Shown here: piece by piece, positions 37,001 to 40,000 of the stretch
Layout: each line of letters begins with the position of its first letter
Numbering within the stretch: position 1 is the first letter of the stretch
Assembly: GCF_051903065.1 (NCBI RefSeq)
Contig: NZ_CP178439.1
From: Escherichia coli
Lineage (GTDB): Bacteria > Pseudomonadota > Gammaproteobacteria > Enterobacterales > Enterobacteriaceae
Direction: 5' to 3' (one strand)
Length of the DNA stretch: 64,000 bases
Program-made: the position numbers

Positions 37001-40000
37001 GACGTCATCGTCTGCGCGGAAATGGACGAACAGTGGGGATACGTCGGGGCTAAATCGCGCCAGCGCTGGCTGTTTTACGCGTATGACAGGCTCCGGAAGA
37101 CGGTTGTTGCGCACGTATTCGGTGAACGCACTATGGCGACGCTGGGGCGTCTTATGAGCCTGCTGTCACCCTTTGACGTGGTGATATGGATGACGGATGG
37201 CTGGCCGCTGTATGAATCCCGCCTGAAGGGAAAGCTGCACGTAATCAGCAAGCGATATACGCAGCGAATTGAGCGGCATAACCTGAATCTGAGGCAGCAC
37301 CTGGCACGGCTGGGACGGAAGTCGCTGTCGTTCTCAAAATCGGTGGAGCTGCATGACAAAGTCATCGGGCATTATCTGAACATAAAACACTATCAATAAG
37401 TTGGAGTCATTACCGGAGAATTGTATCATTAACAGTCTAGTTCTAACGACTACCACTTTTAAGTATGTATTGAGCCAGTTTTATATTCAGGCACACCATA
37501 TTGCACTCTAGCTCTTTCATCATTCTTGAAGAACTCTTAATTAAGTATTCTTCAAGTGGGCCAGCATATGCCCCTGATGTCACGATCGTTAGTTGCGTAA
37601 GAGGATGAGTCAAACTCTCAATGCCCTTCAGGATGTCATTCTGGACAGCAGCAATATAAACAGGCGAAGCCGCAATCAAATATTCATCATTCGGGCTGGA
37701 CTGCATTAACTGGCTTATAGTTGCGCAACGGTTATGCTTACCTAGTGATTTTGTGATGGCTTTCCACCAGAGATCATGCCTGAATGGTACTTGATGAAAT
37801 GTCGCCTCGTAAGAGGGCACCCGATCTCGACTATTTAAAAACCCCATCCCGGCAGAGATTATCCACAACTCCAGATTTCTGGTTGAGTTTAAAATTTCCT
37901 TTGCCGTAGACCAGTGATTACCTGAATACAAGGACAATGCCGGTACCGCCTGATTACTTCTGGCGTCGTCTACAATGTTACTCCAGGCATATGCTGCGTC
38001 GTCCGGGGTTTGTTTTGGATCTATGTCCAATGTCGGCCAGACGTGGCCCTGATGATTCTTGCCCTTTGTACAGGAAGTGATTAAGTGTACTGAGCGTTCA
38101 GAGAACATTATCTTCCTTACATACCCATAGAACAGCTTTCTAAGAACGGTGGGCTCGCCTGAAAATTACAAATCAGCCCCTTTCACGGCATCATTTTGAT
38201 TCTTCGCGTCTGCCCCCAGTAAGATGACCGGTTTTCTGCATGACAGTGTTATTCCTAACAAACGCAACACAAAACCACGCCAGCCAGAGCAAATTTTTTC
38301 ATTTGCTGCGTAAAGCCTATTGTTTTCTCTTTTAAGCTTCGCCCACTCGTTACAGAGGGTAACATCATCAAGCGCTGTTATATGCTTCGCCTCACCTTCG
38401 ACGATAACGGTATGGATACCGTATGCTGTAAATCTCATACTATTTTCCAGAACCCAGTTGCGGTATTCGTCGAGTCCACCTTCGGAACCGGTAGCTCTGC
38501 GCCACATTTCAATTTGCTTGTGTGATGGGTCAAGTGTACTTGTCATTGAAGCCTCGTCTCAGCGATAACGCTTGAAATAGCCCGCTTTGGTCATCATGAA
38601 ATTAGCCATCTGACTGGCGATTTGATTGTATCTTACTCATAGTGCCCTACCTATAGGTTAAAAAGGGGCATTTTCGCTTTATAGCGTGTTCAGCAGCATC
38701 AATCCTCCCAAGAAAGGCTGGCTTATTAAGCCGGTCCATCATTTTCTGTATATCTCTCATCAATTTTTATATCCGCCCTGGAGTGCACCGTTCAAGCACA
38801 CCGATTAGGCAGATAGTCACTAGTTAACTCTTTACTAGTGACTAAATTCCATTGATATACGTGACAACGTCACGTCATGAAAGCTTATAAATGCCTATTT
38901 TTCATACAATGGGATTTAATTAGGAGTAAATCCCATAGGCTTACATAAGGATGACAATTAAAAGCGTTAAATATCAACCAGATAGAATGATTACCCCCAA
39001 TTAATGGGCTCATCACATTATTTCACTGGCTGGGGTTATTGCTGGCATATCTGAAAGTGCTAATATGTTAGTCATTAGTAATTAGTAAAGCCTTTACTAA
39101 ACGCGTTTCTACGTAAATTCTATAGGTTTTATAGTGTCCTACCTTTGCTCAAATCAAAATGTTCTGACATACCAAAATGGAGTGTAAAATGACTCAAAAC
39201 CAGGGTTCTGAGCCAGTACCGGCGAGCCGGACAGGGCAGCTCATCAGCGCCCGGGATATGGCCATGCAGAAATTCGAAGAAGGGATGCGGTTAATCTCGG
39301 AAGCGTCGGAACTGTGCGGTCTCTCTCTCTTCACCAGCAGAATTATGCAGCCCAACGCATTTGGTCTTCCGTCGTCACTGGATCGCACCATCGAGGAGGG
39401 GCGTAAGGAAATTGACCGTAAAACGTGGAAAAGGCTCTTTGAAGAAACAGGTATGGACCGGTACTGGAACCATAAGCAAAAAGAAGCCTTTAACGAATCC
39501 CTTCGTACGGATCCGCCCGTCGCTTCCCTGGAGATTGTTAAGGGAACATTACAGCATGCACTGGCTAACAGACGAGACACCCTTGCAGAAGGTTTCGTTG
39601 ATGTTCTCAACAAGCTTGACCGAAGTTTCAAAAGCAATGCCAGGCAATATACAATGCCAAAAAAGCTTGTTCTTCGGGGGATTTTTCCTGGTGTGAACGT
39701 GCTGAGGTACAACGGTTTCTCGCAGGACAATCACTTTTGTTTACGCGACTTTGAGAATATTGTATGCATCTGTTCTGATACTCCAACACCTGCAACCGGC
39801 GGTGGGCTGAGTATGGTCGACAGGCTGACGGCCATGAGAAATACAGAATTCACAGGCGAGGTCAGTGATGAGAATGGCTGGCGGTGTCGCCTGTTTGAGA
39901 ATGGAAACGTTCATATTTGCATCGACAGTATCTCGCTTCTGAATGCTCTGAACGATCTTATCAGCATATATTTTGCAAACCAGCTTCCGGCCGCAGGAAA

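What the first reader, a model, noticed from the sequence alone, without database searches (positions are those of the whole stretch)
38547..39176. Palindrome-rich 630-bp divergent intergenic region
Between divergent unknown genes lie several perfect or near-perfect inverted repeats (AGTCACTAGT...ACTAGTGACT; ACGTGACAACGTCACGT; GGGATTTA...TAAATCCC; TAGTAAAGCCTTTACTA) and a repeated motif TAGTG(C/T)CCTACCT at approx 38641 and 39133. This density suggests multiple regulator binding sites, for example a partition or replication-control region or a tightly repressed divergent promoter.
Basis: seen in the sequence. Interest (0 to 1): 0.4.

Follow-up and report, generated by a model that had tools for sequence, protein, structure and literature searches.

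The report
IncHI plasmid operator region, Tn6230 landing site
This palindrome-rich spacer is a conserved promoter and operator region in front of a two-gene operon of IncHI resistance plasmids, and it is also the spot where the silver/copper-resistance transposon Tn6230 repeatedly inserts; in this window the spot is empty.

Summary
The 630-bp spacer holds three perfect inverted repeats with arms of 9 nt or more, against 0.04 expected, and is the densest such stretch in the 64 kb. The window is an IncHI2 plasmid backbone. Three motif classes recur in the same order upstream of the DUF4942 / coiled-coil operon in eight lineages whose proteins are only 35-55% identical, while the left-hand neighbour gene differs in each. 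The classes are a heptad palindrome YAGTAAn-N3-nTTACTA (two copies), GTGAC-N3-GTCAC, and ATGnGATTTA-N8-TAAATCnCAT. The proximal heptad palindrome lies 13-16 bp downstream of a conserved extended -10 element, which is the layout of a repressed promoter. The motifs occur nowhere else in 253 kb of plasmid R478, so this is a local control region and not a par, rep or plasmid-wide regulon site. The binding protein is not identified; the operon's own KfrA-like coiled-coil protein is a weak candidate. Its second copy, however, contains GTCCT (39136-39140), the known target duplication of the Tn7-like transposon Tn6230. At least five independent insertions, all in one orientation, fall within about 5 bp here, and about 98% of plasmid-borne copies sit at this site. 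The flank does not resemble the chromosomal yhiN site, which suggests a second target selector. That last point is untested.

The parts
38814..38844 (.). Distal heptad array 'A': TAGTCAC TAGTTAA ctc TTTACTA GTGACTA, i.e. two direct and two inverted TAGTnAn heptads around a 3-bp centre
   Evidence: Perfect 11-nt arms. Related arrays lie at the same relative place in IncHI1, L034, L039, L040, L036 and L038. The 7-bp phased TAGT tandems occur only in this spacer within the window. In 253 kb of R478 there is one unrelated hit elsewhere (ACTATCCACTA at 55710), and the core palindrome occurs only in this spacer.
38859..38875 (.). IR2: ACGTGAC-aac-GTCACGT; the conserved core is GTGAC-N3-GTCAC at 38861-38873
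   Evidence: The core is present in 8 of 8 lineages with invariant arms and varying centres (AAC, ACC, AGT, ACC, GTT, AGT, AAG, ACT). The expectation is about 0.0006-0.001 per spacer. It is unique in R478.
38909..38936 (.). IR3: ATGGGATTTA-n8-TAAATCCCAT, preceded by a conserved TAC-n and followed by a TT(G/T)ACA-like block
   Evidence: Present in 7 of 8 lineages with a constant 8-nt centre and 7-10 of 10 symmetric positions. Changes cluster at positions 4-5, some symmetric and some not. It is unique in R478. In 100,044 species genomes it was found only on two IncHI-type contigs, plus about the number of hits expected by chance.
39039..39066 (+). Putative rightward promoter: -35-like TTGCTG (39039-39044), a 16-bp spacer, then extended -10 TGc-TAATAT (39058-39066)
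   Evidence: GTGCTAAT is 100% conserved between IncHI1 and IncHI2. A TGnTAnnnT element lies at the same place in L034, L036, L038, L039 (perfect TGtTATAAT) and L040. The generic promoter scan did not call it because it scores below 9 of 12. The transcription start is not mapped, so this is an inference.
39069..39099 (.). Proximal heptad array 'B', the putative operator: TAGTCAT TAGTAAT TAGTAAA gcc TTTACTA; core palindrome at 39083-39099
   Evidence: 84% identical between IncHI1 and IncHI2, against a 37-47% background. The core (T/C)AGTAAn-N3-nTTACTA lies at -106 to -111 from the DUF4942 ATG in the window, L010, L034 and L039, with variants in L036, L038 and L040. It starts 13-16 bp after the -10 hexamer.
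39104..39120 (+). Conserved block GTTTCTACGTAAATTCT (consensus GCTACGnnAATTCT) between the operator and the transposon insertion point
   Evidence: Conserved in the window, L010, L034, L039, L036 and L038. It lies 16-32 bp from the Tn6230 target duplication.
39136..39140 (.). Unoccupied Tn6230 insertion point: GTCCT, the 5-bp target that is duplicated in occupied plasmids
   Evidence: pIncHI2-MU3 has ...ATAGTGTCCT|TGTCCGAGG... about 30.1 kb ...CTACACA|GTCCTACCTTTG, and the window is the exact empty site. R478 uses GGTCC, 1 bp to the left, confirmed at both junctions. L002-type plasmids join 2 bp to the right. IncHI1 uses the homologous position, GGTGG. The GTCCT and GGTCC repeats were reported by Fang et al. 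2016 (PMC4855149).
39189..40007 (+). First gene of the controlled operon: DUF4942 protein, 272 aa ('orf819')
   Evidence: Pfam PF13708, E = 2.7e-26. Annotated in pD90-1 and R478. Syntenic in all eight lineages.
40004..41209 (+). Second gene: 401-aa protein with a helical N-terminal domain and a long coiled coil (KfrA-like); a candidate autoregulator
38166..38546 (-). Left neighbour: 126-aa hypothetical gene, specific to IncHI2 and not part of the conserved module
   Evidence: Absent from IncHI1 and the other lineages. Relatives occur in IncF and IncI plasmids. No Pfam, NCBIfam or PDB match.
38639..38659 (+). First copy of the direct repeat (ATAGTGCCCTACCT, overlapping the palindrome ACCTATAGGT); the second copy is at 39120-39144
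   Evidence: 13 of 14 identical in this lineage. Not conserved in the R478 lineage or in IncHI1. It is probably coincidental. This left 250 bp of the spacer also tolerates a Tn3 insertion at about 38724.

Best explanation
The spacer is the cis-regulatory region of the DUF4942 / KfrA-like coiled-coil operon of IncHI-type plasmids. An extended -10 promoter (TGcTAATAT, 39058-39066) fires rightward. An array of TAGTnAn heptads, ending in the palindrome TAGTAAA-gcc-TTTACTA (39069-39099), covers roughly +3 to +33, where a bound repressor would block RNA polymerase. About 200-300 bp upstream lies a second block with three more dimer-type sites: a second heptad array, GTGAC-N3-GTCAC, and ATGGGATTTA-N8-TAAATCCCAT. 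This block probably adds further repressors or cooperates with the proximal operator by DNA looping. The same region is exploited by the Tn7-like silver/copper (and mcr-9) transposon Tn6230. The transposon inserts 39-43 bp downstream of the proximal palindrome, always with its tnsA end towards the operator. This geometry matches TniQ/TnsD-directed att-site insertion. The window carries the empty site. What is shown: the elements are real, unique and deeply conserved; their position relative to a conserved -10 element is constant; and Tn6230 inserts here recurrently, in one orientation, at a specific site. What is inferred: that the sites bind repressors, that the binder may be the operon's own KfrA-like product, and that a second transposon-encoded TniQ-like protein recognises the site.
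For: Palindrome enrichment: 0 of 1000 shuffles reached the observed count. The window is 100% identical to IncHI2 plasmids. IncHI1 versus IncHI2 footprint: IR2 88%, IR3 arms exact, GTGCTAAT 100% and array B 84%, against a 37-47% background. Eight syntenic lineages at 35-55% protein identity keep the motif set and order while the left neighbour changes. GTGAC-N3-GTCAC is present in 8 of 8, where about 0.001 is expected per spacer. Half-sites are invariant, spacing is fixed and centres vary; IR3 tolerates asymmetric changes in the middle of its arms. This pattern fits protein binding better than hairpin formation. TGnTAnnnT lies 13-16 bp upstream of the palindrome in 7 lineages. The motifs are unique in 253 kb of R478. 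Tn6230: the empty and filled sites correspond exactly, with 5-bp duplications. There are four junction positions within 5 bp, and two transposon variants at the identical IncHI1 position. 549 + 46 of about 607 plasmid records with the tnsA-side end carry this junction. In chromosomes the same end abuts yhiN, and that flank is unrelated in sequence. The element encodes TnsD and a 308-aa TniQ-like ORF.
Confidence: 0.6

Rival explanations
1. The region is a centromere-like or plasmid-positioning site rather than mainly a transcriptional operator. The KfrA-like coiled-coil protein would bind the repeated heptads and other palindromes to build a nucleoprotein complex used in segregation or anchoring, and any repression would be a side effect.
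For: The downstream gene combines a helical N-terminal domain with a roughly 250-aa coiled coil, and one relative has a sub-threshold KfrA_N hit. From my own knowledge, KfrA-type proteins have been linked to plasmid stability. The two heptad arrays lie 262-304 bp apart. The locus is unique in the plasmid, as a centromere would be.
Against: No ParA- or ParM-type ATPase is adjacent, and IncHI already has two par modules elsewhere. Tn6230 separates the site from the kfrA-like gene in hundreds of stable plasmids. The proximal array sits exactly at a conserved -10 element, which points to transcription control.
Confidence: 0.15
2. The palindromes act as single-stranded DNA hairpins during conjugative entry, as a priming signal or a single-strand promoter of the Frpo/ssi type that allows early expression of establishment genes.
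For: Both strands fold better than shuffles, with z = -3.9 and -3.0. The neighbourhood resembles establishment or anti-defence gene sets: an orphan C5 methyltransferase, DUF1173, DUF4942, H-NS and a nuclease. The 126-aa protein has relatives in IncF and IncI plasmids.
Against: Only short, separate hairpins of 7-11 bp form. There is no long imperfect hairpin carrying -35 and -10 elements (centroid structures). IR2 arms are invariant with no covariation, and IR3 tolerates unpaired changes in mid-stem, down to 7 of 10 in L034. In R478, oriT/mobI/mobH lie about 44 kb away even without the transposon. There is no Rfam match even at E <= 1.
Confidence: 0.08
3. The region is a replication origin or a replication-control region.
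For: It is AT-rich (35-38% GC), has repeated short motifs, and is unique in the plasmid.
Against: No rep gene is adjacent, and the IncHI2 replicons lie at R478 1-876 and about 260 kb. The sequence read contains no TTATCCACA-type DnaA box. The repeats are heptads and palindromes, not 17-22 bp iterons. The elements travel with the DUF4942 operon across lineages.
Confidence: 0.03
4. The palindromes are a chance feature of an AT-rich spacer, or the remains of a mobile element, and have no function.
For: The 14-bp direct repeat is not conserved. The left 250 bp of the spacer tolerates Tn3 and other insertions.
Against: Enrichment: 0 of 1000 shuffles reached the observed count. The elements are conserved in eight lineages against an unalignable background. 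No other copies exist in R478 or in 100,044 species genomes.
Confidence: 0.02

Closest known systems
Autoregulated kfrA-type operons of broad-host-range plasmids (IncP-1 RK2/R751, IncU RA3), where a coiled-coil DNA-binding protein binds repeats in its own promoter. This comparison rests on my own knowledge.
   Same: The operon encodes a protein with a small helical N-terminal domain and a long coiled coil. There is a palindrome and repeat array at the promoter. The locus is unique in the plasmid.
   Different: The protein does not reach the Pfam KfrA_N threshold; only one relative has a sub-threshold hit. It is the second gene, after DUF4942. Three different motif classes are present, not one. 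Binding has not been tested.
Heptad-repeat operators of ribbon-helix-helix repressors such as omega of pSM19035, which binds 7-bp repeats in direct and inverted arrays. This comparison rests on my own knowledge.
   Same: The unit is 7 bp, repeated in phase in both direct and inverted orientation and overlapping a promoter.
   Different: The heptad sequence differs (TAGTnAn, not WATCACW). No ribbon-helix-helix gene was identified nearby. This is an analogy of architecture only.
attTn7 downstream of glmS, and the yhiN attachment site of Tn6230 (PMC11406308 Table 1; PMC8417528; PMC3401170)
   Same: Insertion is site- and orientation-specific with 5-bp duplications. The tnsA-proximal end faces the conserved determinant, which lies about 25-65 bp from the insertion point.
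   Different: The target is a plasmid intergenic operator, not the 3' end of a conserved chromosomal gene. It has no sequence similarity to the yhiN flank. The recognising protein is unknown.
Tn5053/Tn402 'res hunters', TniQ-dependent transposons that target plasmid resolution sites (PMC11406308 Table 1)
   Same: A TniQ-family transposon homes to a protein-binding cis site on plasmids, which promotes horizontal spread.
   Different: The site here is not a res site and no resolvase is adjacent. The element is a TnsABCD-type Tn7 relative that also has a chromosomal att site.
IncHI2 accessory-module hotspot 'orf159-orf819' occupied by Tn6230-related regions (PMC13049778), and the 5-bp repeats GTCCT/GGTCC (Fang et al. 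2016, PMC4855149)
   Same: It is the same location; orf819 is the 819-bp DUF4942 gene. The direct repeats are the same.
   Different: Those papers, as far as I read them, describe the insertion but not the conserved palindromes, the promoter-operator layout, the use of the homologous site in IncHI1, or the idea of a dedicated plasmid attachment site.

Membership tests
Repressor-controlled sigma-70 promoter (operator overlapping an extended -10 promoter) | A conserved -10 hexamer with an upstream TG, at a fixed position relative to the gene | tested here: met
   TGnTAnnnT is found in 7 lineages at the same place, perfect (TGtTATAAT) in L039. GTGCTAAT is identical in IncHI1 and IncHI2.
Repressor-controlled sigma-70 promoter (operator overlapping an extended -10 promoter) | A recognisable -35 element at 16-18 bp | tested here: inconclusive
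   TTGCTG with a 16-bp spacer (window) and TTGGTC with a 17-bp spacer (IncHI1) each match only 3 of 6 positions. The generic scan called no promoter. Extended -10 promoters can do without a -35 element (my own knowledge).
Repressor-controlled sigma-70 promoter (operator overlapping an extended -10 promoter) | A palindromic or repeated site with conserved half-sites that overlaps the region from -35 to +30 | tested here: met
   The heptad array and palindrome start 3 bp after the -10 hexamer (39069-39099). The half-sites are conserved and the 3-bp centre varies across lineages.
Repressor-controlled sigma-70 promoter (operator overlapping an extended -10 promoter) | A mapped transcription start and demonstrated repressor binding | not testable with these tools
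   This needs 5'-RACE or RNA-seq, and EMSA or footprinting.
KfrA family (Pfam PF11740 N-terminal DNA-binding domain plus coiled coil) | A match to KfrA_N at or above the gathering score | tested here: not met
   The window protein and its IncHI1 orthologue give no hit even at E <= 10. One relative of the seven scanned (P0025) scores 20.3 bits against a cut-off of 26.1, E = 9e-4.
KfrA family (Pfam PF11740 N-terminal DNA-binding domain plus coiled coil) | A long C-terminal alpha-helical coiled coil | tested here: met
   Coiled-coil and SMC-type matches cover residues about 136-380. The model ends in a long helix from residue 110.
KfrA family (Pfam PF11740 N-terminal DNA-binding domain plus coiled coil) | A DNA-binding fold in the N-terminal domain | tested here: inconclusive
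Tn7-like attachment site (att) for Tn6230 | Independent insertions at the same position, within a few bp | tested here: met
   Junctions lie 39, 40, 41 and 43 nt after the palindrome, in IncHI1, R478, MU3 and L002-type plasmids. A 90%-identical transposon variant sits at the identical IncHI1 position.
Tn7-like attachment site (att) for Tn6230 | A single orientation and a 5-bp target duplication | tested here: met
   In every case the tnsA end faces the operator. The duplications GTCCT, GGTCC and GGTGG are seen at both junctions.
Tn7-like attachment site (att) for Tn6230 | Sequence related to the element's known chromosomal att site (the 3' end of yhiN), as expected if TnsD recognised both | tested here: not met
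   The two flanks share only a 10-mer, at a different distance from the junction, and it is not conserved in other IncHI lineages.
Tn7-like attachment site (att) for Tn6230 | Recognition by an element-encoded TniQ-family target selector | not testable with these tools
   The candidate is a 308-aa ORF. It has a sub-threshold Pfam TniQ match in 4 of 6 homologues (best E = 3e-4) and a CxxC...CxH region that aligns with TnsD. Its structure model failed. A transposition assay is needed.
Plasmid partition site (parS/parC) | Adjacency to a parA/parB or parM/parR cassette, or sharing motifs with one | tested here: not met
   The R478 par genes lie at 15.5-22.5 kb. The motifs are absent there and everywhere else in the 253 kb scanned.
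Single-strand promoter or initiation signal (Frpo/ssi) | A long imperfect hairpin that forms promoter elements or a primosome site | tested here: not met
   Only short local hairpins appear in the minimum-energy and centroid structures. There is no stem covariation in IR2, and IR3 tolerates unpaired changes.

The most novel reading that the evidence does not exclude
The proximal operator, together with the adjacent GCTACGnnAATTCT block, is a dedicated plasmid attachment site for Tn6230. It would be recognised not by TnsD, which targets yhiN, but by the element's second, divergent TniQ-like protein (308 aa), possibly acting on the operator only when its repressor is bound. Tn6230 would then have a protein-guided pathway that homes specifically to IncHI plasmids. 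This would account for the tight link between sil/pco (and mcr-9) and IncHI plasmids.
Probability: 0.35. Interest if true: 0.7.

Novelty: new member of a known kind. Interest (0 to 1): 0.5.

Why it matters
IncHI plasmids are major carriers of mcr-1, mcr-9, ESBL genes and metal resistance. This spacer is the entry point through which the roughly 30-kb sil/pco (and mcr-9) transposon Tn6230 has repeatedly joined IncHI1 and IncHI2 backbones. A 2024 review still lists the targeting of Tn6230 as 'molecular details unknown'. This analysis defines an empty site, a conserved determinant at the distance expected for a TniQ/TnsD-type selector, and a candidate second selector, so the question can now be tested directly. 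The region also provides a compact, deeply conserved set of three operator motifs for an uncharacterised backbone module (DUF4942, a KfrA-like protein, DUF1173, an orphan C5 methyltransferase and a nuclease), and so offers a way in to that module's regulation and function.

Tried and rejected
- Phage collection: no match.
- Rfam: nothing in the spacer, at gathering thresholds or at E <= 1.
- Generic promoter scan: no sites. It did report one terminator-like hairpin at 38716-38736, in the non-conserved left part.
- Near-matches to TTAGTAAAG at 45.9-47.4 kb turned out to be AT-rich coding sequence for small membrane proteins.
- Plasmid-wide regulon: rejected, because the motifs are unique in 253 kb of R478.
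- Multi-copy MITE or mobile-element remnant: rejected, because no other copies exist.
- The plasmid site as a mimic of the yhiN att site: rejected.
- L002-type right junction: lost to IS26, so that duplication could not be confirmed.
- The left side of the transposon in the K. michiganensis plasmid is rearranged.
- DNA-binding domains in small neighbouring proteins: none found in Pfam, NCBIfam or PDB sequences.
- AlphaFold model of the 308-aa TniQ-like protein: unusable, pLDDT 39.6.
- The afdb50 fold library was unavailable.
- The word-indexed homologue search with the N-terminal domain returned mostly frameshifted fragments.
- The first IR3 alignment (A7) was misregistered and was replaced by a programmatic extraction.
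- Literature searches for DUF4942, KfrA with IncHI, and TniQ with IncHI found nothing on this region. Peters et al. 2014, which named Tn6230, is not in the library, so I cannot exclude that it mentions the plasmid site.
- Resemblances of the heptads to TrpR, TyrR, Fur, CpxR and C-box operators were considered from memory and dropped, because the spacing or orientation does not fit.
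Full report
**Observation.**
- The inverted repeats are TAGTCACTAGT-n9-ACTAGTGACTA (38814-38844), ACGTGACAACGTCACGT (38859-38875), ATGGGATTTA-n8-TAAATCCCAT (38909-38936) and TTAGTAAAG-c-CTTTACTAA (39082-39100).
- The direct repeat ATAGTG[C/T]CCTACCT lies at 38639 and 39131.
- Three perfect inverted repeats have arms of at least 9 nt and loops of at most 12 nt, where 0.04 are expected. None of 1000 dinucleotide-preserving shuffles reached that number.
- This is the densest 630-bp window of the 64 kb.
- Both strands fold better than shuffles (z = -3.9 and -3.0), but only through short local hairpins.

**Context.**
- The window is 100% identical to many IncHI2 plasmids of Salmonella and E. 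coli.
- To the left, the backbone is cut by an IS1 and a resistance region.
- To the right lie the DUF4942 gene, a 401-aa coiled-coil protein, and then, convergently, DUF1173, a 55-aa ORF and an orphan C5 cytosine methyltransferase, followed by a thermonuclease-family gene.

**A transposon landing site.**
BLAST matches to the spacer break at fixed points. The main break is at window 39140.
- In pIncHI2-MU3 the sequence reads ...TTTTATAGTGTCCT|TGTCCGAGGACAATAAAG..., followed about 30.1 kb later by ...TCTCTACACA|GTCCTACCTTTGCTC. This is a Tn7-like element with tnsA at one end and pcoE at the other, flanked by a 5-bp duplication, GTCCT.
- The window has a single GTCCT (39136-39140) and is the exact empty site.
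- The element is Tn6230. Fang et al. 2016 reported its 5-bp repeats (GTCCT or GGTCC) in IncHI2 plasmids (PMC4855149). A 2026 study lists 'orf159-orf819' as a Tn6230 hotspot (PMC13049778); orf819 matches the 819-bp DUF4942 gene.

The new finding here is how specific this site is.
- R478 uses GGTCC, 1 bp to the left, confirmed at both junctions.
- A large group of Enterobacter-type plasmids joins 2 bp to the right, and its transposon end has a different sequence (TGTCCGAAG...).
- IncHI1 plasmids, whose DUF4942 protein is only 63% identical, carry the element at the homologous position with duplication GGTGG.
- A transposon variant only 90% identical (end TGTTCAAAAAC...) sits at the very same IncHI1 position.
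- Empty sites exist in both plasmid groups (window; L010).
- All insertions have the tnsA end towards the spacer.
- Of about 607 plasmid records that contain the tnsA-side end, 549 carry the IncHI2 junction and 46 the IncHI1 junction.
- In E. coli chromosomes the same end abuts the 3' end of yhiN in 683 places, as published (PMC8417528, PMC3401170).
- The yhiN flank and the plasmid flank are unrelated in sequence. They share only a 10-mer, at a different distance, and it is not conserved in other lineages.
- Besides TnsD (489 aa, TniQ plus TnsD domains), the element encodes a 308-aa ORF with a sub-threshold match to TniQ: 4 of 6 homologues match, best E = 3e-4, and a CxxC...CxH region aligns with TnsD. 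Its structure model failed.

**What the palindromes are for the plasmid itself.**
- Between IncHI1 and IncHI2 the spacer is barely alignable (37-47% identity), apart from islands: IR2 88%, the IR3 arms identical, GTGCTAAT 100%, and the array around the fourth palindrome 84%.
- The first and fourth palindromes belong to one family. Both are arrays of a 7-bp unit, TAGTnAn, in direct phase, followed by a 3-bp centre and inverted units.
- In 253 kb of R478, the core TAGTnAA-N3-TTnACTA occurs twice, both times here, and IR2 and IR3 occur once each, where 0.15 or fewer are expected.
- A scan of 100,044 species genomes for IR3 found only two IncHI-type contigs, plus about the number of hits expected by chance.
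- This is therefore a unique local site, not a plasmid-wide regulon.
- The par and rep genes of R478 lie elsewhere.

**Deeper comparison.**
An exhaustive HMMER search with the N-terminal domain of the 401-aa protein found a small family at 35-55% identity. The contigs that encode these proteins keep the whole module: DUF4942, coiled-coil protein, DUF1173, 55-aa ORF, C5 methyltransferase and nuclease. The gene to the left is different in every case. Their upstream spacers carry the same elements in the same order.
- GTGAC-N3-GTCAC is present in 8 of 8 lineages, with invariant arms and centres AAC, ACC, AGT, ACC, GTT, AGT, AAG and ACT. About 0.001 is expected per spacer.
- ATGnGATTTA-N8-TAAATCnCAT is present in 7 of 8, always with an 8-nt centre. 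Changes concentrate at positions 4-5; some are symmetric (L041) and some are not (L034 keeps 7 of 10 pairs).
- The palindrome (T/C)AGTAAn-N3-nTTACTA lies at -106 to -111 from the DUF4942 start in four lineages, with close variants in three more.
- Invariant half-sites, fixed spacing, free centres and tolerance of unpaired changes fit dimeric protein binding sites. They do not fit hairpins that must pair.
- In seven lineages a TGnTAnnnT element lies 13-16 bp upstream of the proximal palindrome (TGcTAATAT in the window at 39058-39066; a perfect TGtTATAAT in L039). A conserved GCTACGnnAATTCT block follows the palindrome.

This is the layout of an extended -10 promoter whose early transcribed region is covered by an operator. 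The promoter itself is an inference: the generic scan did not call it and no transcription start is mapped.

**Who binds.**
- No neighbour has a recognised DNA-binding domain.
- The second gene of the operon resembles KfrA proteins in architecture, with a small helical N-terminal domain and a long coiled coil.
- One relative has a sub-threshold KfrA_N hit (E = 9e-4). The window protein has none.
- Autoregulation by this protein is a candidate and no more than that.

**How the two roles connect.**
- Tn6230 inserts 39-43 nt after the proximal palindrome, which puts the palindrome and the conserved block 16-67 bp from the duplication, on the side of the tnsA end.
- From my own knowledge, that is the geometry of TnsD at attTn7.
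- The conserved operator region is therefore the most likely recognition determinant. Because it does not resemble yhiN, a second selector is likely, and the 308-aa TniQ-like ORF is the candidate. All of this is inferred.
- Insertion places tnsABCD directly downstream of the plasmid promoter. It also cuts the DUF4942 operon off behind the pcoE terminator.
- Hundreds of such plasmids persist, so control of that operon from this promoter is dispensable.

**Rejected or weak alternatives.**
- A partition site is rejected: no par genes are adjacent and the motifs are not shared with the par loci.
- A replication origin is rejected: there is no rep gene, no iterons, and no DnaA box in the sequence.
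- A single-strand promoter or priming signal is unlikely: there is no long hairpin and no covariation, and oriT lies about 44 kb away in R478.
- A mobile-element remnant is rejected because no other copies exist.
- Chance is rejected.
- A centromere-like role for a KfrA-type complex cannot be excluded.

**Verdict.**
The partition and replication ideas are not supported.
- The region is an uncharacterised but ordinary kind of element, a plasmid promoter-operator cluster. Its added interest is that it is the specific plasmid landing site of Tn6230.
- The insertion location was already published. The conserved operator architecture, its reach across eight lineages, and the case for a dedicated plasmid attachment site with a second selector do not appear in the papers I could read.

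Noticed in passing
window 34074-37399: The backbone to the left of the DUF6884 gene is interrupted by a resistance region: a short-chain dehydrogenase (34074-34937), a sul-type dihydropteroate synthase (35689-36480) and IS1 (36896-37399). The H-NS gene and neighbouring genes present in pD90-1 and R478 are missing from this position.
   Followed up: partly
window 10966-11035; 30959-31034; 63310-63382: Rfam finds RNA-OUT (the IS10 antisense RNA) and two attI / aminoglycoside-leader elements, which indicates IS10/Tn10 sequences and two class 1 integron platforms elsewhere in the window.
   Followed up: no
window 38716-38736 and about 38748: Tn3 is inserted at the GGCTGGCTTATTAAGCCGGTC hairpin (about 38724) in plasmid pGMI14-002_1. 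Matches in other plasmids start at 38748, a second breakpoint. The non-conserved left 250 bp of the spacer tolerates insertions.
   Followed up: partly
window 38166-38546 (minus strand): The 126-aa protein is absent from IncHI1 and the other lineages, but has 45-56% identical relatives in IncF and IncI plasmids (one annotated 'yafA'). It looks like a gene cassette shared between plasmid families.
   Followed up: partly
window 38975-39025: This roughly 50-bp segment is replaced by unrelated sequence in the R478 lineage of IncHI2, although both flanks are nearly identical. It is a small patch of recombination or replacement between the distal and proximal element blocks.
   Followed up: no
window 39025-39034; L011 (E. 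coli yhiN 3' end): The 10-mer CTGGCTGGGG is shared by the yhiN attachment flank and the plasmid spacer, but at different distances from the insertion point (59-69 bp versus 105-115 bp). It is not conserved in R478 or IncHI1, so it is probably chance.
   Followed up: yes
L003 6642-6800; L009 4650-4700: After insertion, tnsA lies about 160 bp inside the transposon end, on the same strand as the plasmid promoter, so the transposition genes may be read from the plasmid's regulated promoter. At the other end, a strong terminator after pcoE separates the DUF4942 operon from upstream transcription.
   Followed up: no
L007 36557-38380 (inside Tn6230): The transposon cargo next to the TniQ-like ORF includes a fragmented AAA-ATPase / OLD-family TOPRIM nuclease gene and an HTH_3 regulator. 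This may be a degraded defence system.
   Followed up: no
R478 (L031) 266919-268610: R478 encodes a second, much longer DUF4942 protein (563 aa) near a Dam-type methyltransferase. This hints that DUF4942 is connected with DNA modification.
   Followed up: no
window 46616-47462: A run of three small ORFs (84, 113 and 76 aa) in AT-rich DNA whose products look like membrane proteins; two of them are unannotated in the plasmid gene tables I consulted.
   Followed up: no
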